Source: Candidatus Moranbacteria bacterium UBA4824
Lineage (GTDB): Bacteria > Patescibacteriota > Minisyncoccia > Moranbacterales > UBA2206
DNA length: 64,000 bases
Reading direction: 5' to 3'
Assembly (NCBI GenBank): GCA_002400405.1
Contig: DHFM01000046.1
Coordinates: 11,722 to 75,721 of the forward strand
Positions 2,573 through 64,000 of the stretch are shown piece by piece (the stretch's first letter is position 1; the number at the start of each line of letters is the position of its first letter). The position numbers and the translations under genes were made by a program. The notes beneath the pieces are model-generated. The model searched no databases. It was not told the DNA's origin and was given only the letters and a program-made list of their open reading frames with translations.

Positions 2573-2573
2573 T

Positions 2574-2673
2574 TTGCAATTTTCAAGTTTCAATTTTCAA
2601 TTACCAATGTTTCTAGTTTGAAAATTTATTTATTGAAAATTCATTGAAAATTGAAACTTGTGAATTGAAAATT
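2574..2673. repeat. Repeat family C copy (inverted repeat arms ttttcaagtttcaattttcaat ... attgaaaattgaaacttgtgaattgaaaatt)
   Basis: Arms reverse-complementary over about 20 bp. Half-copy at 2140..2180 on the other side of the four-helix-bundle gene. Full copy at 13386..13503. Confidence 0.6.
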
Positions 2674-6081: not shown

Positions 6082-6187
6082 TCAGAACCACTGATTATCA
6101 CATGAGCTCACTTGATTTCACTGAACAGAAATTTCATTCATGTGTAATCAGTATAATCAGTGCTAATCAGTGGTTCAGACATTTATG
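6079..6187. repeat. Repeat family D copy 1 (about 105-bp structured intergenic leader 'cagaaccactgattatcac...taatcagtggttcagacatttATG')
   Basis: Near-identical to 6584..6693, with 2 substitutions. Fills the whole intergenic space from the stop codon to the ATG of the next gene. Internal inverted repeats (aaccactgatta / taatcagtggtt). Confidence 0.7.
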
Positions 6188-6583
6188 CTATTTAATGTGC
6201 CACAATTCATCGACATCGAAGACAAGATTGTCGGTCCGCTCACAGCCAAACAACTTGGCTGGCTTGGAATTGCTGGTGTTTTACTCTTGATTTTTTGGAG
6301 CACTCTGGTTTTTTCAACTTTTGTCCCTGTCGCTCTCATCACCTTGGCAATTTTTGGCGCCTTGGCCTTCTACCGACCCTACAACCAACCCCTTTTAAAT
6401 TTTCTAATGTCTGGTGTTAATTTTTTTATGAAGCCCAAGGTCTATGTTTGGAAACGATTTTATGATAATATAAAAACAGTCAACCGAACACCACAAAAAC
6501 CTAAAGAAGAAATTATCGTTAAGAGAAAAGTTTTAGATAATGAAAAAATTAGAGAATTGACGGAAAGACTAAATAGAAAATAA
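6185..6583 (+). CDS. PrgI family / VirB3-like small membrane protein
   Basis: About 132 aa. Motif F.VP..I...DKI.GPLTAKQL followed by two TM helices, typical of PrgI/VirB3-like proteins. The ORF-track GTG start at 6170 lies inside repeat D, so ATG 6185 is preferred. Confidence 0.55.
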   Translation: MLFNVPQFIDIEDKIVGPLTAKQLGWLGIAGVLLLIFWSTLVFSTFVPVALITLAIFGALAFYRPYNQPLLNFLMSGVNFFMKPKVYVWKRFYDNIKTVNRTPQKPKEEIIVKRKVLDNEKIRELTERLNRK

Positions 6584-6693
6584 ATAATCAGAACCACTGA
6601 TTATCACATGAGCTCACTTGATTTCACTGAACGGAAATTTCGTTCATGTGTAATCAGTATAATCAGTGCTAATCAGTGGTTCAGACATTTATG
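6584..6693. repeat. Repeat family D copy 2
   Basis: Direct repeat of 6079..6187, again running from a stop codon to the next ATG. Confidence 0.7.
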
Positions 6694-7377
6694 GAAATAT
6701 TACACTCAAAAAAACTCTCCACCGAACCATCATCTTCGCCAACGCAGAAGTATTTGGATGTGGCGGAGGTTAAAGATGATACGATTATCTTGAAATCAGG
6801 CGCGCTTCGCTCTGTTTTAGCTGTGTCAGCCATCAATTTTGATTTGAAATCCACCGATGAACAAACAGCCATCATCAACCAATACCAAAATTTTCTCAAT
6901 TCTGTGGATTTTCCCATTCAAATACTTGTGAGCTCGCGAAAACTGGATATGCGAACTTATTTCGACTATATAACCAGCAAAGAAAAAACCCAACACAGTG
7001 AATTGCTTCGGATGCAGTTGGCAGAATACAAAAATTTCATTGAACAACTCGTGAGTGGTTCCAATATTATGGAAAAAAATTTCTATATTATCGTGCCTTT
7101 TTCTCCGATTGAGAATAAGGATAAAGGATTTTTTTCTAATATCGGGAGTCTAATGAATCCGCAAAAAAATATTATTGAAAAAAACACCAATTTTGAAACT
7201 TACAAAAACCAGCTTTTTCAAAGAGTTGACCATATCATCGCCGCTCTTTCCGGCATTGGACTACGCATCGCCCCGCTCAAAACCGAAGAACTGATTGAAC
7301 TATTATTCAATTCATATAACCCGGAAATTTTCAACGCATCAGAATTGAAGGATGTGGAGAAATTAGAATTACAATAA
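6691..7377 (+). CDS. virB4: VirB4/TrbE-family protein, N-terminal fragment (split gene, part 1)
   Basis: DDTIILKSGALRSVLAVSAINFDLKSTDEQ matches the conserved N-terminal segment of Gram-positive-type VirB4 (PrgJ/TcpF-like). Ends at a stop 92 nt before the ATPase-part ORF. Confidence 0.55.
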   Translation: MEILHSKKLSTEPSSSPTQKYLDVAEVKDDTIILKSGALRSVLAVSAINFDLKSTDEQTAIINQYQNFLNSVDFPIQILVSSRKLDMRTYFDYITSKEKTQHSELLRMQLAEYKNFIEQLVSGSNIMEKNFYIIVPFSPIENKDKGFFSNIGSLMNPQKNIIEKNTNFETYKNQLFQRVDHIIAALSGIGLRIAPLKTEELIELLFNSYNPEIFNASELKDVEKLELQ

Positions 7378-7379
7378 AA

Positions 7380-7445
7380 TTTACGAAAATACGAATCTAG
7401 CGAAAGTACGAATTCGTAATTTAGTTTAATTCGTATTTTCGTAAA
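7380..7445. repeat. Repeat family A copy (66-bp element with perfect 17-bp terminal inverted repeats tttacgaaaatacgaat/attcgtattttcgtaaa and central palindrome tacgaattcgta) separating the two VirB4 ORFs
   Basis: Terminal inverted repeats confirmed by reverse-complementing. Near-identical copy at 63549..63614. Related TACGAAT arrays at 21939, 37855 and 52368. Confidence 0.65.
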
Positions 7446-7468
7446 TAATAAAACACAAAAAAACATCC

Positions 7469-9286
7469 ATGTTTAATTTTCTTAAAAAAAACCCAACCAC
7501 CCAAGCCAAGACCAATGAAATTCTTGAGGGTGAAAAATACTATCAAGAAGGTGTTTCGCGACTCAATGATCTTTTGGCTCCCTCTGCGATAAAAATAATG
7601 CCGAAATTTATCCGTGTGGGAGAAACACTGGCGCAAACTATTTTTGTGGTGGCTTATCCGAGATTTCTCAATAGCAATTGGTTCTCTCCGATTATAAACA
7701 TTGATTTACCAATTGACATTTCGATGTTTATCCACCCAATTGAAACTTACGACATCTTGAAAGATCTCAAAAAAAATGCCACCAGAGTTGAATCACAAAT
7801 TCATATCGAACAAGAAAAAGGTATGATTCGCGATCCCGCCCTTGAAACTGCCATCCAAGATATTGATGAACTGCGAAGCAACTTACAACAAGGCACCGAA
7901 AAATTCTTTCGTTTTGGACTCTATATCACTGCTTACGGCGAAAATGAAAAAGAACTTTCTGATATTACTCGCTCAATCGAAGCAATTCTAGAAGCCCAAT
8001 TAGTCTATGTAAAACCAGCAATTTTCAAGTCTGAACAAGGCTTTAATTCAACTTTGCCGTTAGCTAACGACGAACTAGACATAGGATCGAGCATGAACAG
8101 CGCTCCGCTTTCCACCACTTTTCCTTTTGTTTCTTCCACTCTATCTTCCAATGAAGGAATTCTTTATGGAATAAATCGTCACAACAACAGTTTGATTATT
8201 TTTGACCGCTTCAAAATGGAAAATGCCAATATGGTGGTTTTTGCCAAATCCGGTGCTGGAAAAAGTTATACTATAAAGCTGGAAGTTTTGCGCTCTTTGA
8301 TGATGGGCACTGATGTGATTATTATCGACCCAGAAAATGAATATAAGCATCTTTGTGAAACAGTGGACGGAACCTTTGTTAAAATTTCTCTTAATTCCAA
8401 CAATCACATCAACCCTTTTGACTTGCCTCACATCAAAGAAGATGAGGATCCGGAAGATGTACTGCGAAACAACATTGCCAATTTACTTGGATTGCTTCAC
8501 ATCATGCTGGGCAACATTACTCCTGAAGAAGATTCCATTTTAGGTCGAGCTATCAAAGAAACCTATGCTGTTCGTGATATCTCCGCTGAAACTAATTTCA
8601 ATTCTCTTAACAAAGAATCCTACCCAACAATGTCTGATCTCTATCAAATCTTGCGCAGTATGGATGGTGGAGAAAACTTGGCTATTCGCATGGAAAAATA
8701 TACCGAGGGAATTTTTTCCGGCTTCTTGAATAATTCTACTAATGTGAGCGTTGACAATCCAATGATGGTTTTCAATATCCGCGATATGGAAGAGGAACTT
8801 CGACCGATTGCTATGTATATGGTAATGCAATTTATCTGGAATGAAATGAGAACTACGCTCAAGCGAAGATTAGTTTTGGCTGATGAAGCTTGGGTAATGA
8901 TGAAATATGATGACGCCGCTTCTTTTCTTTTTGGAATTGCCAAACGATGTCGAAAATATTATACCGGGCTCACTACCGTCACTCAAGATGTGAATGACTT
9001 TTTGAGCTCTCGTTATGGCAAGGCCATTGTCACCAACTCCTCTATTCAATTACTTTTAAAACAATCTCCCGCAGCTGTGGATGTAATTAGCGAAACATTC
9101 TATCTCACCGACCAAGAAAAATTTCTTCTCTTGGAATCAAATGTGGGAGAAGGAATTTTTTTCGCCGGCACCAACCACGTTGCCATCAAAGTTGTAGCTT
9201 CCTATTCCGAAGATCAAATCATCACCACTGATCCAGCCCAGATGCTGGAAATTGAAAAAGCGAAGAAAGAATTTAGTGAAGAATAA
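7469..9286 (+). CDS. virB4: VirB4/TrbE/CagE-family conjugation ATPase, central and C-terminal part (split gene, part 2)
   Basis: 605 aa. Walker A (VVFAKSGAGKSYT), Walker B (RLVLADEAWVMM). The N-terminal region (YPRFLNSNWFSPIINIDLPIDISMFIHP) is typical of VirB4. Confidence 0.8.
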   Translation: MFNFLKKNPTTQAKTNEILEGEKYYQEGVSRLNDLLAPSAIKIMPKFIRVGETLAQTIFVVAYPRFLNSNWFSPIINIDLPIDISMFIHPIETYDILKDLKKNATRVESQIHIEQEKGMIRDPALETAIQDIDELRSNLQQGTEKFFRFGLYITAYGENEKELSDITRSIEAILEAQLVYVKPAIFKSEQGFNSTLPLANDELDIGSSMNSAPLSTTFPFVSSTLSSNEGILYGINRHNNSLIIFDRFKMENANMVVFAKSGAGKSYTIKLEVLRSLMMGTDVIIIDPENEYKHLCETVDGTFVKISLNSNNHINPFDLPHIKEDEDPEDVLRNNIANLLGLLHIMLGNITPEEDSILGRAIKETYAVRDISAETNFNSLNKESYPTMSDLYQILRSMDGGENLAIRMEKYTEGIFSGFLNNSTNVSVDNPMMVFNIRDMEEELRPIAMYMVMQFIWNEMRTTLKRRLVLADEAWVMMKYDDAASFLFGIAKRCRKYYTGLTTVTQDVNDFLSSRYGKAIVTNSSIQLLLKQSPAAVDVISETFYLTDQEKFLLLESNVGEGIFFAGTNHVAIKVVASYSEDQIITTDPAQMLEIEKAKKEFSEE

Positions 9287-13379: not shown

Positions 13380-13385
13380 AAAATT

Positions 13386-13503
13386 TCCAAGTTTCAAGTT
13401 TCAATTTTCAATGAATTTTCAATATAAAAATTTTCAAAATTAAAGATATTGTAAATTGAAAATTAATCATTCACTGAAAATTGAGAATTGTAAATTGAAA
13501 ATT
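13386..13503. repeat. Repeat family C copy (inverted-repeat element, arms 'caagtttcaattttcaat' / 'attgaaaattga')
   Basis: Same arms as 2574..2673 and the half-copy at 2140..2180. Intergenic between the surface protein and the pilin gene. Confidence 0.6.
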
Positions 13504-20518: not shown

Positions 20519-21934
20519 TTATTTTTTACTGATTATACTGGCAATTTCCTCAATCTTAACTGCTTTAAATAACCAGATAAAAAGAATATAGACGGCTGTT
20601 GCTGAAAAAGCTAATAGAAAAAAATTGATCTTGGAAAAAATGAAAAAATAAATTGCCATAATAATTCCGGAAAAAACAATCGCCCAAAACTTTTCCACTT
20701 TTGGAAAATATTTTAAATCCTTAATTATCACATACAAAGTAGCCAGCGTTACAAAAAGCTCCGTCCCAACAGAAATTAAAGCTGAGGCCATATAGGAAAA
20801 CATTGGGATAAAAATTAGATTAGCGCTCACATTAAAAATCGCCGCTATCGCCATAATAATCATTAATTTTTTTTGCTTATTACCGGAAATTAAAACAATA
20901 TTAAAAAGATTACTAAAAAATATACAGCTCAAGGAAAAAACAAGGATTTGAAGAACCGTACTGGATGCAGAAAACCCCTTCCCACCAATAAGTTCTACAA
21001 TACCATCAGCAAGAAACATCGTTCCTACTATGAGAGGAATAACAAATAACCAAAAAACCTTGAAAGTCTTATTGGAGATATCCCAGAAACGCTTTCTGTC
21101 CGAAAAAATATTTTTTGATATAATTGGAAAAACCAATCCTACAATCATCGCCGGAAAGAAAGTGATATTTTCAATTACCTTGTAGGCTACGTTATATACT
21201 CCCACTTCTGCGCCAGTTTTCAAAACAGACAAAAGGATTGTATCTATTTTAAAGTAAATAAAACTAATGATTGCCGCAATTCCCAATGGATAAGACTCTT
21301 TTATGAATTTTTTCCAATAAGCTGTATCGAATTTCAAAGAAAAAGAAATATATTTTTTAGAAAAAAAGTATATTAAAGAAAAACTAATTATCATATTAAT
21401 AAGAAGCGAAACAATTATCCAAAGAAAGCTTAGGTTAAACTTTATAGCAAAAAAAATAAACAGCACCTGAATAACTTTTCCGGTTAATTCGGAAATTGCC
21501 ACTCGGTCCATAGCTAGATTTTTTTGAAATACCCCATTTAATACTTGATAGGAGGAAGAAAAAAGGAAAGCCAAGGCCACTATCATAATTGCTTGTTTAA
21601 CTTCCGTTGGATATGGAAAGAAAAAAACAATTATCGGCGATAATAACAAAACAATACTTGAAATAATTATACGTAAAGTAAAAATATTACCAATTATTTT
21701 CTTTTCATCAGCTCCTTCGCGAGAAATCTCCCGAGTAACTGTAGAATAAAGCCCAAGATCAGCAATGGCGGTGAAAAAAGATAAAAACGCCAACACTGTG
21801 GCGTAATTTCCAAATCCAACCTGTCCTAAATATCGAGTAATAAGCCCGATTGAAACTAAAGCTAAAATAGTTGAAAGAATTTTAGAAAAACTGCTAACTA
21901 AAACATTGTACGCGATTTTTCTTGCAATAACCAT
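20519..21934 (-). CDS. Wzx-like polysaccharide flippase (MOP superfamily)
   Basis: 471 aa with about 12-14 hydrophobic helices. Position is in the glycosyltransferase/ligase cassette. Confidence 0.6.
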   Translation of the reverse strand: MVIARKIAYNVLVSSFSKILSTILALVSIGLITRYLGQVGFGNYATVLAFLSFFTAIADLGLYSTVTREISREGADEKKIIGNIFTLRIIISSIVLLLSPIIVFFFPYPTEVKQAIMIVALAFLFSSSYQVLNGVFQKNLAMDRVAISELTGKVIQVLFIFFAIKFNLSFLWIIVSLLINMIISFSLIYFFSKKYISFSLKFDTAYWKKFIKESYPLGIAAIISFIYFKIDTILLSVLKTGAEVGVYNVAYKVIENITFFPAMIVGLVFPIISKNIFSDRKRFWDISNKTFKVFWLFVIPLIVGTMFLADGIVELIGGKGFSASSTVLQILVFSLSCIFFSNLFNIVLISGNKQKKLMIIMAIAAIFNVSANLIFIPMFSYMASALISVGTELFVTLATLYVIIKDLKYFPKVEKFWAIVFSGIIMAIYFFIFSKINFFLLAFSATAVYILFIWLFKAVKIEEIASIISKK

Positions 21935-21938
21935 ACAC

Positions 21939-21978
21939 TTACGAATTACGAATTAGTACGAATGTACGAATTACGAAT
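21939..21978. repeat. Repeat family A copy (tandem TACGAAT units: ttacgaattacgaattagtacgaatgtacgaattacgaat) immediately 5' of the wzx start
   Basis: 33 of its bases are identical to 52368..52400. Begins 5 nt from the wzx start codon. Confidence 0.6.
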
Positions 21979-30738: not shown

Positions 30739-30754
30739 GATGAAAACTTGAAAA

Positions 30755-30794
30755 CAAAAAACTTCGGAAATCTTCCGAAGTTTTTTGTTTTTTT
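30755..30794. terminator. Bidirectional rho-independent terminator
   Basis: aaaaaa-cttcggaa-atc-ttccgaag-ttttttgttttttt. Sits between convergent genes 30292..30738 (+) and 30815..33370 (-). Confidence 0.65.
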
Positions 30795-37848: not shown

Positions 37849-37854
37849 AATTAT

Positions 37855-37950
37855 ACCGATTCGAATCTTCGAATGTATGCGAATTCTCGAATCTACGAAT
37901 TTTTATTTAGCTTATTCGTAGATTCGAATGCATTTGTAGATTCGAATCGC
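37855..37950. repeat. Repeat family A variant array (multiple ATTCGAAT / TACGAAT units in direct and inverted orientation)
   Basis: attcgaatcttcgaatgtatgcgaattctcgaatctacgaat...ttattcgtagattcgaatgcatttgtagattcgaatcgc. Lies 5' of the 7TM gene ATG and also encodes the C-terminal tail of ruvC. Confidence 0.55.
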
Positions 37951-38467
37951 GGTTAAGGTTATTAATTTTTCTACTATTAATGTGGCAAAGCGCAATTGCA
38001 ATCGCATCGGCTGTGTCATCCGGTTTTGGTAAATTTGCTAAATTCAAAATATTCTTAGTCATCAACTGCACTTGCTTTTTTTCCGCTCGGCCGTAGCCCG
38101 TTAGAGCTTGTTTGACTTGGAGTGGAGTGTAGCTAGCTACTCTAACATTATTTTGGCATAAAGTCAAGAGAATTGCCCCCCTGGCTTGGGCGACGGTGAT
38201 AACCGTTTTTTGATTTTTAAAGAAGAAGATTTCTTCTACGCCTGCTTCTTGGGGTTGATATTTTTCAATTATATCTTTCAAATCACGAGATATTTCAAAA
38301 ATTCTATCCTCGTCAGATTTTTCAGGAGAAGTGGCGATGTGGCCATATGCCAAAGGTTTCATTTCCCCATCTTTTTCTTCTAATATAGCCCAGCCAGTTG
38401 TAGCCGTCCCAGGATCAATTCCAAGTACTCGCAAAGTTTTTTTTGAAGTTTCAGCTTTCTTTTTCAT
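37907..38467 (-). CDS. ruvC: Holliday junction resolvase RuvC
   Basis: LGIDPGTATTGWAIL...PQEAGVEEIFFFKN...DDTADAIAIALCH. C-terminal 20 aa encoded by the repeat A array. Confidence 0.85.
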   Translation of the reverse strand: MKKKAETSKKTLRVLGIDPGTATTGWAILEEKDGEMKPLAYGHIATSPEKSDEDRIFEISRDLKDIIEKYQPQEAGVEEIFFFKNQKTVITVAQARGAILLTLCQNNVRVASYTPLQVKQALTGYGRAEKKQVQLMTKNILNLANLPKPDDTADAIAIALCHINSRKINNLNRDSNLQMHSNLRIS

Positions 38468-44196: not shown

Positions 44197-44275
44197 CATG
44201 AAGCATGAAGCATAAAACATGAAGCAATCCGTATTTTTTTGTTTTATGTTTCATGTTGTATGTTACATGTTACAT
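44197..44275. repeat. Repeat family F copy (palindromic: catgaagcatgaagcataaaacatgaagca ... gttttatgtttcatgttgtatgttacatgttacat)
   Basis: Arms are reverse-complementary. Same catgaaaca/tgtttcatg core as 26941 and 54430. Confidence 0.55.
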
Positions 44276-48266: not shown

Positions 48267-48269
48267 AAT

Positions 48270-48378
48270 AATTTTTAATTTTGTAATTTTTAATTTTATA
48301 AATAAATCTAAAATCTAAATTTTTAAAAATTAGAAATTAAGAAATTATTTAAAAATTAAAAAATTAAAAATTGGAAAT
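48270..48378. repeat. AT-only ~110-bp direct repeat, copy 1 (family H)
   Basis: aatttttaattttgtaatttttaattttataaataaatctaaaatctaaatttttaaaaatta... recurs with a few changes at 49222..49333. Confidence 0.6.
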
Positions 48379-48403
48379 TCGAGTAAATTTAGTATACACC
48401 CAT

Positions 48404-48633: not shown

Positions 48634-48680
48634 CATTTCAGAACCACTGATTATCACTGATTATACTGATTTCACTGAAT
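48634..48680. repeat. Repeat family D partial copy (cagaaccactgattatcactgattatactgatttcactgaat)
   Basis: Shares the 5' arm of the 105-bp element at 6079 and 6584. Confidence 0.5.
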
Positions 48681-49131: not shown

Positions 49132-49221
49132 AACCAGGCGTGGAGGAGTATGGTGGGAAAAAGAAAAAGGGTTAGCTTGTCGATATAAGCGCCCTTTTTT
49201 TGTTGTCTGAACCACAAAACA

Positions 49222-49333
49222 ATTTTTAATTTTTGAATTTTTAATTTTATAAATAAATCTTAAATCTAAATTTTTAAAAATTAAAAATTGAAATTTATTT
49301 AAAAATTACAAAAATTATAAAATTAAAAATTTT
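49222..49333. repeat. AT-only ~110-bp direct repeat, copy 2 (family H), abutting the stop of the double-PilB gene
   Basis: See 48270..48378. Confidence 0.6.
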
Positions 49334-52300
49334 CTAAAGATCAGTGACTCGTTCCACTTCTTCAAGTGATGTCCCACCTTCCAAAACTTTCAAAATTCCA
49401 TCTTGTGTCATTGTGAGCATGCCGAGTTCGACGGCTTTTTCTTCTAGTTCGGCGGTGATGGCGCCACGGGTGACGAGGTCTTGAATTTCACGGGTTAGTT
49501 GGAAAACTTCACTAACAGTCATGCGACCTTTGTAACCTAGACCGTTGCATTTTTCGCAACCTTTTGGATGATAAATCTCTAAAACTTTGGGAATGTCCAC
49601 TCCCGCCTTTGGACTAATAGTGGCTAAAACTTTTTCAATCATTTCTTTTTCTTTTTCATTTGGCTGGACTTTTTCTTTGCAATCACAAAGGCGACGCACG
49701 AGGCGTTGCGCCATAAAGGCATTGACGGCGGTGGCGATGTCGGACGGGGAAACGCCCATATTGATCATTCGCGCCACTGCTCCGGCGGCGTTGTTGGTGT
49801 GAATTGTAGAAAGCACCAGATGTCCTGTGAGTGAAGCTTGCACGGCTACTTGGGCAGTTTCATCGTCACGAATTTCACCAATCATCATGATATCCGGATT
49901 TTGACGAAGCAGAGCGCGCAGAGCGGTGGCGAAAGTATAGCCTTCTTTGTCGTTGACTGGAGTTTGCAAAATTCCTGGGAGTTGATATTCGATTGGATCT
50001 TCTACGGTGATTATTTTTACTTCCGGTTTATTAAGCATACTGAGAACACTATAGAGTGTGGTAGTTTTTCCACTGCCTGTTGGGCCGGTGTTTAAAATTA
50101 CACCATTAGGTTTTTTTATTTCTGAAATTATTTTGTCTAAGTTTTGTTGTCTAATACCAAGCTTAGTAAGATCCAATTCCATCGATGAACCGCGGAGGAG
50201 TCGCATCACAATTGTTTCACCATAACCACCCAGGATGATCGAAACACGCACATCAATATTTTTTTCGGAGATTGTGATGTCGTCATCAAATTTTATACTA
50301 AAGCGACTGTCAATCACTCCTTGGCGCACTTCAGTTTTCACACCGGAAAGAATTTTAATTTCGCCAAGTAAGGCCGGATATTCATTGAGTGGAAGAGTGG
50401 CAACATTTTGCAAAATTCCATCAATGCGAAAACGAATTTTGACATCATCTTTTTCTGGTTCGATATGAATGTCGCCAACATTGAGAATGGTAGCGGCTGA
50501 AAAAACAATTTTGTTAATATCAGTAGTTTTGGCTGAGCGTAAAATTTCTTCCAGTTTTTTGAAATCCGCTATATTTTCTTGAGCCGAGGTATATTGACTA
50601 TTTTCAATAAGAATTTTTTTGCCCAAAGTTTGGGACATTAATTTCTCATAAATACTTTCCAAAAATTCTCCTTGTCCTGTCGCACTTTCCACTTCATCAA
50701 TGGAAGTGACTCCGGCAATAGCTTTCAAAATTCCATCTTGAAGCATAGTGATCATTCCGGATTCCAAAGCGGCCATAGCTAATTCTGTTTCGCCGGCCAT
50801 TTCTAAAATTAATTTTTCGATATCTTCATTAATCGTGAGTACTTCAAAAATTCCTACGCGACCCTTATACCCCAAACCATTGCATTTCGGACAACCTTTT
50901 GGGCGATAGAGTTTTTCAATGTCTTTGGGAATTTCTACTTTAGCTTTAGGCGAAATAATGGAGAGAATTTTTTTGATAGATTCTATTGATTCTTTTGCTG
51001 GAACATAGGCTTCCTTGCAATCACAAAGTTTTCGCACCAGCCTTTGACCGATAACAGCATTCATAGCGGGGGACATCAAAGTTGGTTTTACTCCAAGCTC
51101 AATAAATCTTGGAATAGCCCCGACAGCATTATTAGTGTGGAGTGAAGACAAAACTAAATGCCCCGTAAGTGCAGAATTAACCGCGATATCAGCCGTTTCA
51201 TCATCGCGAATTTCACCCACTAAAATAACATCTGGATCCTGACGGACAATAGCGCGCAGGCCTTGAGCGAAAGTATAACCTCGTCCTTTTTCTATTTGAG
51301 TTTGAGAAATGCCGGATAATTCATATTCAATCGGATCTTCAATAGTAATGATTTTTTTGTCCGGAGTGTTGAGTTTGTTGATGATTGAATATAGGGTAGT
51401 AGTTTTTCCCGAACCGGTTGGTCCGGTGTTTAGAATCATTCCATTAGGTGAGAGCATTTGTTTTTGCACAGTTTCATAGGCTAAACCTTGGAGACCTAAA
51501 TTTTCCACGCTTACTTTGATTGAATCAGGATCTAGAAGGCGCATTACAACTGACTCACCAAAATTACCAGGGATAATACTCACACGCAAAGCAATTTTTT
51601 TCTCTGCTAGATTTATCTCAAAAGTTCCGTCTTGGGCGATATCGCGAAGATTGAGTTTCATCTTGGACATCAATTTTATGCGCGAGATGATTGTGTTGAA
51701 AACATTGAGAGGTAAAAAGGCGACATCTTGCAAATTGCCATCAATTCGATAACGCAGACGAATTTCTTTTTCTTGCGGTTCAATGTGGACATCGCTGGCA
51801 CCAAGCTTGTAGGCTCCGGCTAGCATAATATTTAGAACTTGAGTAGTGGGAAGTTCTTTAATACGTTGTTTTAGGGTGATCAAATCTTTCATTTCTTCCT
51901 CAAACTTATTCAAATCATCTCCACTAAGACTCAAACTCATTTGATCAAGGATATCTACAAAAACAATCTGTTTATATTTTTCCCAAACGCGATTGATATT
52001 TGAGGTGGAAACGACAAAAAGTTTTATCTGCCAACCTTTTTCAGTTTTTAGATTTTCTATAAAATCATGAGTTTCTTGATTTCTTGGATCGCGAGATATG
52101 ATAGTGACGACTTTGCCACTTCTGTGAATTAGGGCAATGCCGAATTTTCGCGCTTCCTCCTCGGTTAGGAGACGAATATCATCTTTGGAAATTGGGATTA
52201 GATTAGTGTCGACATAGGGAAGATTAAGTTCGGCTGCTAAGGCGCTAGCCATTTCCTCCTCCTCTTTTTTTCTAAATGTAGAAAGAATTTTGGCGGTTTT

Positions 52301-52363
52301 ATTTTCCTGTTGAATTTCATCAGGTTTTACATTTTGAACTTTTGGTTTGAGAATTTTGATCAT
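49334..52363 (-). CDS. Tandem-fused double PilB/GspE-family secretion ATPase (two complete ATPase units in one 1009-aa polypeptide)
   Basis: Two Walker A sites (both NTGPTGSGKTTTLYS). Two Asp boxes and His boxes. Two tetracysteine motifs (CDCKE...CPKCNGLGYKGR and CDCKE...CEKCNGLGYKGR). Two C-terminal MLQDGILK/MTQDGILK motifs. N-terminal GspE_N-like region before each. Confidence 0.8.
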   Translation of the reverse strand: MIKILKPKVQNVKPDEIQQENKTAKILSTFRKKEEEEMASALAAELNLPYVDTNLIPISKDDIRLLTEEEARKFGIALIHRSGKVVTIISRDPRNQETHDFIENLKTEKGWQIKLFVVSTSNINRVWEKYKQIVFVDILDQMSLSLSGDDLNKFEEEMKDLITLKQRIKELPTTQVLNIMLAGAYKLGASDVHIEPQEKEIRLRYRIDGNLQDVAFLPLNVFNTIISRIKLMSKMKLNLRDIAQDGTFEINLAEKKIALRVSIIPGNFGESVVMRLLDPDSIKVSVENLGLQGLAYETVQKQMLSPNGMILNTGPTGSGKTTTLYSIINKLNTPDKKIITIEDPIEYELSGISQTQIEKGRGYTFAQGLRAIVRQDPDVILVGEIRDDETADIAVNSALTGHLVLSSLHTNNAVGAIPRFIELGVKPTLMSPAMNAVIGQRLVRKLCDCKEAYVPAKESIESIKKILSIISPKAKVEIPKDIEKLYRPKGCPKCNGLGYKGRVGIFEVLTINEDIEKLILEMAGETELAMAALESGMITMLQDGILKAIAGVTSIDEVESATGQGEFLESIYEKLMSQTLGKKILIENSQYTSAQENIADFKKLEEILRSAKTTDINKIVFSAATILNVGDIHIEPEKDDVKIRFRIDGILQNVATLPLNEYPALLGEIKILSGVKTEVRQGVIDSRFSIKFDDDITISEKNIDVRVSIILGGYGETIVMRLLRGSSMELDLTKLGIRQQNLDKIISEIKKPNGVILNTGPTGSGKTTTLYSVLSMLNKPEVKIITVEDPIEYQLPGILQTPVNDKEGYTFATALRALLRQNPDIMMIGEIRDDETAQVAVQASLTGHLVLSTIHTNNAAGAVARMINMGVSPSDIATAVNAFMAQRLVRRLCDCKEKVQPNEKEKEMIEKVLATISPKAGVDIPKVLEIYHPKGCEKCNGLGYKGRMTVSEVFQLTREIQDLVTRGAITAELEEKAVELGMLTMTQDGILKVLEGGTSLEEVERVTDL

Positions 52364-52367
52364 TTCC

Positions 52368-52400
52368 TTACGAATTACGAATTAGTACGAATGTACGAAT
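52368..52400. repeat. Repeat family A copy (ttacgaattacgaattagtacgaatgtacgaat) 5 nt upstream of the double-PilB start codon
   Basis: 33/33 identical to 21939..21971. Confidence 0.6.
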
Positions 52401-63548: not shown

Positions 63549-63614
63549 ATTTACTAAAGTACGAATCGAGCGAAAGTACGAATTCGTAATTTAGTTTAAT
63601 TAGTATTTTCGTAA
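63549..63614. repeat. Repeat family A copy (near-identical to 7380..7445), ending 1 nt before the next ATG
   Basis: agcgaaagtacgaattcgtaatttagtttaatt(a/c)gtattttcgtaaa shared with the copy at 7380. Confidence 0.65.
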
Positions 63615-63615
63615 A

Positions 63616-64000
63616 TATGACTAAAAAACAAAAAATAATTATTGCTGTTCTTGCGATAGCAATCGTGGCGGGGGGATTTTATTTTTTCAAAAAAACAAAT
63701 ACTTCCAATGTTAAACAAATAGATCTAAATAACACAAAGTCAAATTCAGGCCCAACTAATACTGGGCCAGTGAGTCCAATTTCGGGGTTAAATTGTGAAG
63801 ATTGGAATCGCCGTCCCGTAGCGGTGATGCAACCATCAGACGTGCAAGCTCGTCCGGCCGCTGGTTTTTCCGAGGCGGATATGGTGATTGAACTTCCTGC
63901 TTATACATCTTCCAATACGCGTCTTTTAGGTGTTTATATTTGTAATATTCCTAAAGAAGTCGGCGCCATTAGAAGTGCTCGCCATGATCACATTGCTTTA
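63616..64000 (+). CDS. DUF3048 (YerB-like) lipoprotein/membrane-anchored protein, 5' partial (continues beyond window)
   Basis: N-terminal TM (IIIAVLAIAIVAGGFYFF). RRPVAVMQPSDVQARPAAGFSEADMVIELPAYTSSNTRLLGVYICNIPKEVGAIRSARHDHIAL matches the DUF3048 N-terminal domain. No stop before the window end. Confidence 0.5.

What the first reader, a model, noticed from the sequence alone, without database searches (positions are those of the whole stretch)
6691..9286. VirB4 conjugation ATPase split into two ORFs by a 66-bp palindromic repeat element
6691..7377 encodes the conserved VirB4 N-terminal segment (DDTIILKSGALRSVLAVSAINFDLKS) and stops. 92 nt later, 7469..9286 resumes with the next conserved VirB4 region (YPRFLNSNWFSPIINIDLPIDISMFIHP) and the full Walker A/B ATPase. 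Together they make about 838 aa, which is normal VirB4 length.

The gap is occupied by a 66-bp element with perfect 17-bp terminal inverted repeats and a central 12-bp palindrome. The same element recurs at 63549 and as TACGAAT arrays elsewhere. Three readings are possible:
- a repeat insertion that split virB4 into two translated polypeptides;
- a recent inactivating insertion;
- a programmed split.

Each has consequences for whether the T4SS locus is functional.
Basis: partly seen in the sequence, partly recalled or inferred. Interest (0 to 1): 0.7.

Follow-up and report, generated by a model that had tools for sequence, protein, structure and literature searches.

The report
Ancestral two-gene VirB4, palindrome in spacer
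The "split" secretion ATPase is the normal, already published two-gene form (TrsD plus VirB4) of the type IV secretion system of these ultra-small bacteria, and the 68-bp palindrome is a dispersed intergenic repeat that landed in the gap between two genes that were already separate.

Summary
The sequence observation holds. ORF1 (6691-7377, 228 aa) and ORF2 (7469-9286, 605 aa) match consecutive parts of VirB4 models. The 91-nt gap holds a 68-bp palindrome (7379-7446), with a second copy at 63549-63616.

The causal reading fails:
- ORF1 is a TrsD-like protein. All 120 listed close homologues and all 150 listed cluster representatives, down to 35% identity, lack the ATPase.
- Two relatives (87% and 92% identical) have trsD-TAA, 4 nt, ATG-virB4 with no repeat.
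- Other relatives carry different palindromes at the same junction.
- The stop codon lies outside the element, and the two ORFs are in different frames.
- Both genes are under strong purifying selection (dN/dS 0.02-0.05).
- Bacillota plasmids show the same TrsD-like plus roughly 620-aa VirB4 pair.
- A 2025 paper already reports TrsD as the commonest type IV secretion component in Patescibacteria.

The element is one of many palindromes filling stop-to-start spacers in this Moranbacteria genome. It occurs at 8 or more intergenic sites in 6 related genomes. Orthologous copies differ far less than their flanks. Its function is unknown. Interest is low.

The parts
6185..6583 (+). prgI (VirB3-like) gene, directly upstream of trsD in the type IV secretion operon
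   Evidence: PF12666 PrgI, E = 8e-10. The same species' contig calls a 132-aa product. The order prgI-trsD-virB4 holds in every related locus.
6588..6685 (.). 98-bp palindromic repeat of a different family (TCAGAACCACTGATTA...TAATCAGTGGTTCAGA) filling the prgI/trsD spacer
   Evidence: Inverted repeats found. A copy at 6082-6179 is 96/98 identical, and a half copy lies at 48638. The spacer folds with z = -8.1.
6691..7377 (+). trsD-like gene (228 aa): a free-standing homologue of the VirB4 N-terminal domain
   Evidence: - NCBIfam hits: TrsD/TraD E = 1.2e-7; N-terminal parts of VirB4 models, E = 2.9e-11, 1.4e-6 and 1.5e-4.
- There are 1343 homologues; the best 120 are all 227-244 aa.
- There are 2206 cluster representatives; none of the best 150 carries the ATPase.
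- The 14 best Foldseek matches are all TrwK/VirB4, from a low-confidence model.
- dN/dS is 0.03-0.05.
7379..7446 (.). 68-bp palindromic intergenic repeat ('type A'), starting 1 nt after the trsD stop and ending 22 nt before the virB4 ATG
   Evidence: - Anatomy.
- An identical copy sits at the same spacer in L005/L010.
- An identical copy sits at a different spacer in L001.
- The genome scan found 11 stretches in 6 Moranbacteria-type genomes, giving 8 or more distinct sites in all.
- L006 and L022 have no element at this junction.
- No terminator or promoter was called here, and there is no Rfam match.
7469..9286 (+). virB4 ATPase gene (605 aa), lacking the N-terminal domain
   Evidence: - NF045971 CD1110-family VirB4 scores 360.5 bits against a cut-off of 325, over model positions 186-734/752.
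- Pfam P-loop_TraG, AAA_10 and DUF87 match.
- PDB 4ag5 (VirB4 C-terminal domain) matches at E = 2.4e-49. ORF2 residues 121-553 align with TrwK 299-735.
- dN/dS is about 0.02.
8243..8266 (+). Walker A motif AKSGAGKS (residues 259-266 of VirB4)
   Evidence: Read from the translation.
8870..8893 (+). Walker B motif LVLADEAW (residues 468-475)
   Evidence: Read from the translation.
63549..63616 (.). Second type A copy, between the fpg stop (63529) and the ATG (63617) of a DUF3048 gene
   Evidence: It is 64/68 identical to the copy at 7379-7446. The same site-specific variant is present at the orthologous site in L009 and L018. Neighbouring genes were identified.
21939..21978 (.). Direct array of five TACGAAT units, equal to one arm of the 'type C' palindrome, next to the start of the minus-strand flippase gene 20519..21934
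52368..52399 (.). Direct array of four TACGAAT units (one type C arm), next to the start of the minus-strand 1009-aa T2SSE ATPase gene
37852..37950 (.). CGAAT-unit palindrome between a 7TM_transglut gene and ruvC, overlapping the 3' end of the ruvC ORF
6082..6179 (.). Copy of the 98-bp TAATCAGT-unit palindrome, filling the spacer between the 422-aa gene and prgI
   Evidence: The spacer folds with z = -5.3.

Best explanation
The window is from a Moranbacteria-type (Patescibacteria/CPR) chromosome and carries the type IV secretion locus typical of that phylum.

**The two genes.** In this system the VirB4 function is encoded by two genes. trsD encodes a roughly 228-aa homologue of the VirB4 N-terminal domain. 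virB4 encodes roughly 605 aa holding the middle region and the ATPase. This architecture is old. It is shared with a subclass of monoderm conjugation systems (pGO1 type) and predates the palindrome.

**The spacer.** The likely original junction is compact: stop, 4 nt, start. That spacing would allow translational coupling, which is an inference.

**The element.** In this lineage a 68-bp palindromic repeat occupies the spacer. It is built from TACGAA(A/T) units. It starts 1 nt after the trsD stop codon and leaves an A-rich 22-nt stretch in front of the virB4 ATG. It did not interrupt any coding sequence, and both genes remain intact and constrained.

**What the element is.** It belongs to a set of palindromes and half-palindromes of short repeated units that fill stop-to-start spacers in this genome and its relatives. 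Occupancy varies between close relatives. I infer that it is transcribed as part of the operon mRNA and forms a stable hairpin. It is tolerated there, or it modestly adjusts the ratio or stability of the flanking cistrons, as REP-type elements do in other bacteria.
For: **The halves.** ORF1 and ORF2 cover consecutive, non-overlapping parts of three VirB4 models.

**The split is ancestral.**
- ORF1 has 1343 homologues, and the best 120 are all 227-244 aa.
- There are 2206 cluster representatives. The best 150 are 132-597 aa, down to 35% identity.
- The gene order prgI-trsD-virB4 is identical in every related locus.
- Bacillota plasmids have a TrsD-like gene (hhalign E = 1.3e-34 and 8.4e-18) overlapping the start of a 617-621-aa VirB4/TraE gene.
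- PMC12102498 reports 2272 TrsD homologues in Patescibacteria, 1664 of them next to virB4.

**The element did not cause the split.**
- L006 and L022 have 4-nt spacers and no element.
- The stop codon and both conserved protein termini lie outside the element, and the frames differ.

**The genes are functional.** dN/dS is 0.02-0.05 at dS 0.8-1.4, and the Walker A and B motifs are intact.

**The element is a dispersed repeat.**
- Identical 68-mers sit at non-orthologous spacers in different genomes.
- The scan found 11 stretches in 6 genomes.
- Different palindromes occupy the same junction in L001, L007, L023 and L002-4.
- 16 of 31 spacers of 35-300 nt in the window fold with z < -3. This includes all six long spacers of the secretion cluster.
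Against: - No expression data exist, so co-transcription and translation of both genes are inferred.
- My own Pfam scan gave no hit for ORF1, although the stored annotation of the identical protein lists PF26593 TraC-like.
- The NCBIfam TrsD score is 31.7 bits, far below that model's cut-off of 200 bits.
- The AlphaFold model of ORF1 is poor (pLDDT 59), so the VirB4 fold matches are weak.
- The mode of spread of the element is unknown. No target-site duplication is evident, and no transposase was linked to it.
- Orthologous copies are about ten times more conserved than their flanks. A purely selfish or neutral element does not explain that.
Confidence: 0.9

Rival explanations
1. A palindromic repeat inserted into a once continuous virB4 gene and split it into two translated polypeptides.
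For: The two ORFs correspond to consecutive parts of VirB4, and a repeat lies exactly between them.
Against: - Relatives keep two genes 4 nt apart with no repeat.
- None of the listed ORF1 homologues is fused to the ATPase.
- The same gene pair occurs on Bacillota plasmids.
- The stop codon lies outside the element, and deleting 66 or 68 bp does not restore a common frame.
Confidence: 0.01
2. The repeat is a recent polar insertion that blocks virB4 expression and inactivates the secretion locus.
For: A -29 kcal/mol hairpin lies between the cistrons. No promoter-like site was called between it and virB4.
Against: - virB4 is intact and 96.5-98% identical to relatives, with dN/dS about 0.02.
- The identical element at the same site in another species (L005, dS about 1) shows that the insertion is old and tolerated.
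- The hairpin has no T-run, so it is not a canonical terminator.
- Most relatives also carry a hairpin at this junction.
Confidence: 0.03
3. The palindrome is a selected cis-acting element, not a passenger. It could be a protein-binding site made of TACGAA units. It could instead be an mRNA hairpin that sets stability, processing or the TrsD:VirB4 ratio. This reading is compatible with the ancestral split.
For: - Orthologous copies differ at 6 of 612 positions, against 503 of 2738 in the 150-nt flanks.
- Site-specific variants are shared between species.
- The same three spacers of the operon are filled by different palindrome families in different genomes.
- The elements sit precisely between stop and start codons.
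Against: - Two relatives lack any element at this junction.
- Changes among copies show no more covariation than shuffled controls.
- There is no Rfam match.
- The conservation estimate is inflated, because 31 of the 68 positions were fixed by the search pattern. Outside the pattern the count is 6 of 333.
Confidence: 0.3
4. The two ORFs are joined during expression, by frameshift or read-through, into one full-length VirB4.
For: None beyond the adjacency of the two ORFs.
Against: - The gap is 91 nt and contains stop codons, and the ORFs are in different frames.
- Spacer length ranges from 4 to 178 nt among relatives, with unrelated sequences.
- The ORF2 start codon and N-terminus are conserved.
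Confidence: 0.01
5. The junction is an assembly artefact caused by a repeat.
For: Repeats can cause misassemblies.
Against: Two independent assemblies of the same species have the identical junction (L020 and L021). So does another species in two separate records (L005 and L010).
Confidence: 0.01

Closest known systems
Chromosomal type IV secretion system of Patescibacteria (Microb Genom 2025, PMC12102498)
   Same: It has the same components in the same neighbourhood: PrgI/VirB3-like, TrsD, VirB4, a VirB6-like protein, an SLT/VirB1-like protein, a pilin-like protein, and KsgA nearby. TrsD is encoded separately from VirB4 and next to it.
   Different: Nothing essential differs. The paper passages I read do not mention intergenic palindromes in the operon.
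TrsD-TrsE (TraD-TraE) pair of staphylococcal pGO1/pSK41-type conjugative plasmids (MPF-FATA subclass), and the equivalent pairs on Pontibacillus and Bacillus cereus plasmids
   Same: A roughly 200-270-aa protein homologous to the VirB4 N-terminus lies directly upstream of a roughly 620-aa VirB4 ATPase.
   Different: - On those plasmids the two genes overlap; here they are 91 nt apart.
- Those systems are on plasmids and serve conjugation. This one is chromosomal, and per the paper most such clusters lack a relaxase.
- The match of ORF1 to the NCBIfam TrsD model is far below its cut-off.
Full-length VirB4 (TrwK of R388; CD1110 family; Mycoplasma ICE VirB4)
   Same: ORF1 and ORF2 together cover the whole model length in order. 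ORF2 residues 121-553 align with TrwK 299-735. The best fold matches of ORF1 are TrwK.
   Different: Those proteins are one polypeptide of about 750-900 aa. Here there are two.
REP/BIME and REPIN elements, and bacterial MITEs such as Correia or RUP
   Same: The elements are short, palindromic, confined to intergenic DNA and present in several copies per genome. They are lineage-specific in sequence and polymorphic for presence between relatives. They often lie within operons just after stop codons.
   Different: - The arms are not themselves palindromic, and there is no GTAG head as in REPs.
- No RAYT or other transposase has been identified, and no clear target-site duplication is seen.
- The element is built from tandem 7-10-nt units, and half elements occur as direct arrays.
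Rickettsia palindromic elements (RPE), which insert in frame inside genes
   Different: Here the element lies wholly in an intergenic spacer and interrupts no reading frame.

Membership tests
TrsD / TraC-like family (stand-alone VirB4 N-terminal-domain homologue) - ORF1 | Significant match to the family model | tested here: inconclusive
   NCBIfam NF041427 TrsD gives E = 1.2e-7 but only 31.7 bits, against a cut-off of 200. The stored annotation of the identical protein P0001 and of all listed homologues gives PF26593 TraC-like. My own scan of the local Pfam copy returned nothing.
TrsD / TraC-like family - ORF1 | Homology to the N-terminal part of VirB4 | tested here: met
   - NF045975, positions 91-233/894, E = 2.9e-11.
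- NF045971, positions 19-120/752, E = 1.4e-6.
- TIGR00929, positions 5-169/792, E = 1.5e-4 (all).
- The 14 best Foldseek matches are TrwK/VirB4 chains, E from 5e-3, from a low-confidence model.
TrsD / TraC-like family - ORF1 | Free-standing protein of about 200-270 aa encoded directly upstream of virB4 | tested here: met
   Bacillota plasmid counterparts match the ORF1 profile at E = 1.3e-34 and 8.4e-18.
VirB4 ATPase (CD1110-type / monoderm MPF-FATA-like) - ORF2 | Score above the curated cut-off of the family model | tested here: met
   NF045971 scores 360.5 bits against a cut-off of 325. The match covers only model positions 186-734/752, so the N-terminal part is missing from this polypeptide.
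VirB4 ATPase - ORF2 | Walker A and Walker B motifs; similarity to a solved VirB4 ATPase domain | tested here: met
   AKSGAGKS at residues 259-266 and LVLADEAW at 468-475. PDB 4ag5 matches at E = 2.4e-49.
Gene disrupted by a mobile-element insertion | An uninterrupted gene at the empty site in relatives | tested here: not met
   The empty sites in L006 and L022 still hold two genes, with a stop codon and a 4-nt spacer.
Gene disrupted by a mobile-element insertion | Removing the element restores one reading frame | tested here: not met
   The TAA stop lies upstream of the element. The frames differ with or without the 66 or 68 bp.
REP / REPIN elements | Short intergenic imperfect palindromes in many copies, specific to a lineage | tested here: met
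   - There are 2 type A copies in 64 kb, and at least 4 per related genome with a strict pattern.
- All copies examined are intergenic.
- The scan found the element only in Moranbacteria-type genomes, and found none in viral contigs.
REP / REPIN elements | Conserved GTAG head; each REP unit is itself a palindrome; an associated RAYT (Y1 transposase) gene | tested here: inconclusive
   There is no GTAG head, and the arms are not self-palindromic (read from the sequence). RAYT presence could not be tested, because only 64 kb of the genome is available.
MITE | Terminal inverted repeats | tested here: met
   Perfect 17-nt termini.
MITE | Target-site duplication and a parent insertion sequence with the same termini | tested here: inconclusive
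   Flanks at 8 sites show no consistent duplication, only A/T-rich context, often AATAA. I did not search for a parent element.
Intrinsic transcription terminator | G+C-rich stem followed by a T-run | tested here: not met
   No terminator was called at 7379-7446. The stem is A/T-rich and is followed by AATAATAAAACAC. A canonical terminator exists elsewhere in the window, at 30751-30791.
Known structured RNA family (Rfam) | Match at the gathering threshold | tested here: not met
   No match in the whole window. Covariation among copies is no higher than in shuffled controls.

The most novel reading that the evidence does not exclude
The spacer-filling palindromes made of short repeated units (TACGAAT, TAATCAGT, TTTCAAT and others) could be an undescribed class of conserved cis-acting elements in Moranbacteria operons. 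Three observations point that way:
- They sit exactly between a stop codon and the next start codon.
- Orthologous copies change roughly ten times more slowly than the flanking genes.
- Different families replace one another at the same junctions of the secretion operon.

This suggests selection for a hairpin or a protein-binding array that sets the relative output of neighbouring cistrons, in an organism that hardly uses Shine-Dalgarno sites.
Probability: 0.2. Interest if true: 0.5.

Novelty: already known. Interest (0 to 1): 0.2.

Why it matters
- **Practical.** A short virB4 preceded by a small "hypothetical" gene in Patescibacteria should not be annotated as a pseudogene or a disrupted gene. 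It is the normal TrsD + VirB4 architecture. The locus here looks functional.
- **Open question.** The function of TrsD is unassigned (PMC12102498). Its homologue is listed there as essential in the one Patescibacteria strain tested.
- **Small possible novelty.** This clade has a rich set of intergenic palindromes whose sequences are unusually conserved. Their mode of spread and any regulatory role are unknown. I found no description of them in the paper library.

Tried and rejected
- **Sequence search of ORF1 against solved structures.** A 43-sequence ORF1 profile gave no meaningful match. The link to the VirB4 N-terminal domain therefore rests on the NCBIfam models and on weak fold matches.
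- **Structure prediction of ORF1.** The alignment of close homologues was shallow, and the model was poor (pLDDT 59). The fold matches are only supportive.
- **Terminator or promoter reading of the element.** Nothing was called at 7379-7446.
- **Known RNA family.** No Rfam match.
- **RNA-structure covariation among nine distinct copies.** No better than shuffled controls.
- **Shine-Dalgarno sequestration.**
  - The idea was that the type C stem (CCTTA...TAAGG) hides a ribosome-binding site for translational coupling.
  - I dropped it because only 7 of 58 genes in the window have any such motif.
- **Common regulon.** The genes downstream of TACGAAT arrays are a flippase, a PilB-type ATPase, a DUF3048 protein and VirB4. 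They share no obvious function beyond the cell envelope.
- **Viral origin.** No copy was found in viral contigs.
- **Literature.** Searches for REP or MITE elements in CPR/Patescibacteria found nothing relevant.
- **One script timed out** and was rerun with fewer shuffles.
Full report
**1. The observation**

ORF1 (6691-7377, 228 aa, TAA stop) and ORF2 (7469-9286, 605 aa) are present as described. The gap is 91 nt. It contains a palindrome with these features:
- Perfect 17-nt termini at 7380-7396 and 7429-7445.
- The centre TACGAATTCGTA at 7407-7418.
- One more complementary base on each side, which gives 68 bp (7379-7446).

As RNA the spacer folds at -29 kcal/mol, z = -7.2. A second copy lies at 63549-63616 and is 64/68 identical. 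TACGAAT arrays lie at 21939-21978 and 52368-52399. A related CGAAT-unit palindrome lies at 37852-37950. Two independent assemblies of the same species carry the identical junction, so it is not an assembly artefact.

**2. What the two ORFs are**

ORF2 passes the curated cut-off of the CD1110-type VirB4 model (360.5 bits against 325), but it covers only model positions 186-734 of 752. ORF1 matches positions 19-120 of that same model. The two ORFs also cover consecutive parts of two other VirB4 models.

Further evidence on ORF2:
- It matches the solved VirB4 ATPase domain 4ag5 at E = 2.4e-49.
- Its residues 121-553 align with TrwK 299-735.
- Walker A (AKSGAGKS, residues 259-266) and Walker B (LVLADEAW, residues 468-475) are intact.

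Further evidence on ORF1:
- It matches the NCBIfam TrsD/TraD model at E = 1.2e-7, which is below that model's cut-off.
- A low-confidence AlphaFold model (pLDDT 59) has TrwK/VirB4 chains as its 14 best structural matches.
- A sequence profile of ORF1 found nothing in the PDB.

So the statement that these are two consecutive halves of VirB4 is right at the level of homology.

**3. The element did not cause the split**

ORF1-like proteins are a very large family of free-standing proteins.
- The first search found 1343 homologues, and the best 120 are all 227-244 aa.
- The exhaustive search found 2206 cluster representatives. The best 150 are 132-597 aa, down to 35% identity, and none carries the ATPase.

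Related loci all have the gene order prgI, trsD (228-229 aa), virB4 (605-612 aa). The junction between trsD and virB4 differs among them:

| Locus | ORF1 identity to window | Spacer | Content |
|---|---|---|---|
| L006 | 92% | 4 nt | TAA-GTCT-ATG, no repeat |
| L022 | 87% | 4 nt | TAA-ATTC-ATG, no repeat |
| L005/L010 | 93% | 92 nt | the identical 68-bp element |
| L001 | 92-93% | 97 nt | a different palindrome of TACGAA units |
| L007 | 91% | 92 nt | a different palindrome of TACGAAT units |
| L023 | 87% | 116 nt | a different palindrome of TACGAAA/TACTAAA units |
| L002-4 | 72% | 178 nt | unrelated G+C-rich hairpins |

Other points against causation:
- The trsD stop codon and the conserved C-terminus (...KLELQ) lie upstream of the element.
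- The virB4 ATG and the conserved N-terminus lie downstream of it.
- The two ORFs are in different frames, and removing 66 or 68 bp does not change that.
- Outside the phylum, the best plasmid matches of ORF2 (Pontibacillus, Bacillus cereus) have a 216-274-aa gene overlapping the start of a 617-621-aa VirB4/TraE gene. Those small proteins match the ORF1 profile at E = 1.3e-34 and 8.4e-18.

The arrangement is published. PMC12102498 describes TrsD as a remote homologue of the VirB4 N-terminus. It reports 2272 TrsD homologues in Patescibacteria, 1664 of them next to virB4. It also notes that the TrsD homologue of Ca. S. epibionticum ML1 is listed as essential.

**4. The locus is not decaying**

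Between the window and four relatives, dS is 0.8-1.4. Over the same comparisons dN/dS is 0.03-0.05 for trsD and about 0.02 for virB4. The element is identical in a species that has diverged this far, so the insertion is old and tolerated.

**5. What the element is**

*Distribution.*
- A genome scan with a 31-base core pattern found 11 stretches in 6 Moranbacteria-type genomes. It found none in viral contigs.
- Together with the window and the protein-derived loci, the element occupies at least 8 different intergenic sites. Its ends are sharp (ATTTAC...GTAAAT), and there is no consistent target-site duplication.
- The identical 68-mer lies at the trsD/virB4 spacer in the window, but at the spacer upstream of prgI in L001.
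- UBA2206 (L005) carries copies in three consecutive spacers.
- The TACGAAT arrays of the window equal one arm of the palindrome found at the trsD/virB4 and prgI/trsD spacers of L007. A metagenome scan found 14 more stretches holding full or half forms. Most of those start a few bases after a stop codon.

*Conservation.*
- Orthologous copies differ at 6 of 612 positions. Their 150-nt flanks differ at 503 of 2738.
- The search pattern fixed 31 of the 68 positions, so that comparison is biased. Outside the pattern the count is 6 of 333. The site 1 pair (window and L005) was found through the protein search, independently of the pattern, and shows 0 of 68.
- Site-specific variants are shared between species, which points to old insertions that have stayed conserved.
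- The changes among copies do not covary. The window has no Rfam match, and no terminator or promoter was called in the element.

*Context in this genome.* The element is not special here.
- The two spacers upstream of trsD hold 98-bp palindromes of another family (6082-6179 and 6588-6685).
- Other unit-repeat palindromes lie at 2573-2671, 13382-13496, 48267-48379 and 49207-49344.
- 16 of 31 spacers of 35-300 nt fold with z < -3, including all six long spacers of the secretion cluster.

**6. Mechanism**

*Shown.*
- The two-gene architecture is ancestral.
- The element sits in a pre-existing spacer.
- The element is dispersed, and its presence varies between relatives.
- Both genes are constrained.

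*Inferred.*
- The compact 4-nt junction is the original state and couples translation of the two proteins.
- The palindrome is transcribed within the operon mRNA and forms a hairpin that leaves an A-rich, unstructured 22 nt before the virB4 ATG. That would suit an organism in which only 7 of 58 genes have a Shine-Dalgarno-like motif.
- The element is either a tolerated REP- or MITE-like passenger, or it modestly tunes mRNA stability or the cistron ratio. I put about 0.3 on a selected cis-acting role.

**7. Verdict**

The homology reading is right and the causal reading is wrong. The split is already known, and the finding rates low interest. The only possibly new item is the family of conserved spacer-filling palindromes in this clade. 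I found no description of it in the paper library.

Noticed in passing
window 6082-6179 and 6588-6685 (half copy near 48638-48680): Two 98-bp palindromes of another repeat family (TCAGAACCACTGATTA...TAATCAGTGGTTCAGA) are 96/98 identical. Each starts right after a stop codon and is followed by the same CATTT-ATG. They fill the two spacers upstream of trsD.
   Followed up: partly
window 2573-2671, 13382-13496, 48267-48379, 49207-49344, 44197-44262: Further intergenic palindromes are built from other short units (TTTCAAT, AATTTTTAA, CATGAAG). Overall, 16 of 31 spacers of 35-300 nt fold far better than shuffled sequence.
   Followed up: partly
window 49334-52363 (minus strand): A 1009-aa protein has two matched stretches of the T2SSE (PilB-type secretion ATPase) family plus an MshEN domain. 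It looks like a tandem double ATPase. Its start lies next to a TACGAAT array.
   Followed up: no
window 37907-38467 (minus strand) and 37852-37950: The RuvC domain ends at residue 162 of a 186-aa ORF. The last roughly 15 codons and the stop codon lie inside a CGAAT-unit palindrome, so the repeat may have supplied the end of the reading frame.
   Followed up: no
whole window (58 provisional genes): Only 7 of 58 start codons are preceded by a Shine-Dalgarno-like motif. The upstream regions are A/T-rich instead.
   Followed up: partly
L006 9089-9481; L006 4930-5313 and L007 5259-5642; L023 5225-5611: Small genes come and go inside the otherwise syntenic secretion locus of close relatives. One is a 130-aa bAvd / 23S_rRNA_IVP-type gene between the 453-aa gene and prgI. 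PDDEXK_3 genes appear at two different positions.
   Followed up: no
window 6691-7377 (ORF1): The stored annotation of the identical protein lists Pfam PF26593 (TraC-like). My hmmscan against the local Pfam copy returned no family at E <= 0.1. This may be a difference in library versions, which I did not check.
   Followed up: no
L006 1072-1140 and 5325-5420; L007 1169-1240; L006 9890-10000: Relatives carry further unit-repeat palindromes with other units (ATGCGAAT/ATTCGCAT; CAATGAAC/TTGATCA) in intergenic spacers. Each genome seems to have its own mix of repeat families.
   Followed up: no
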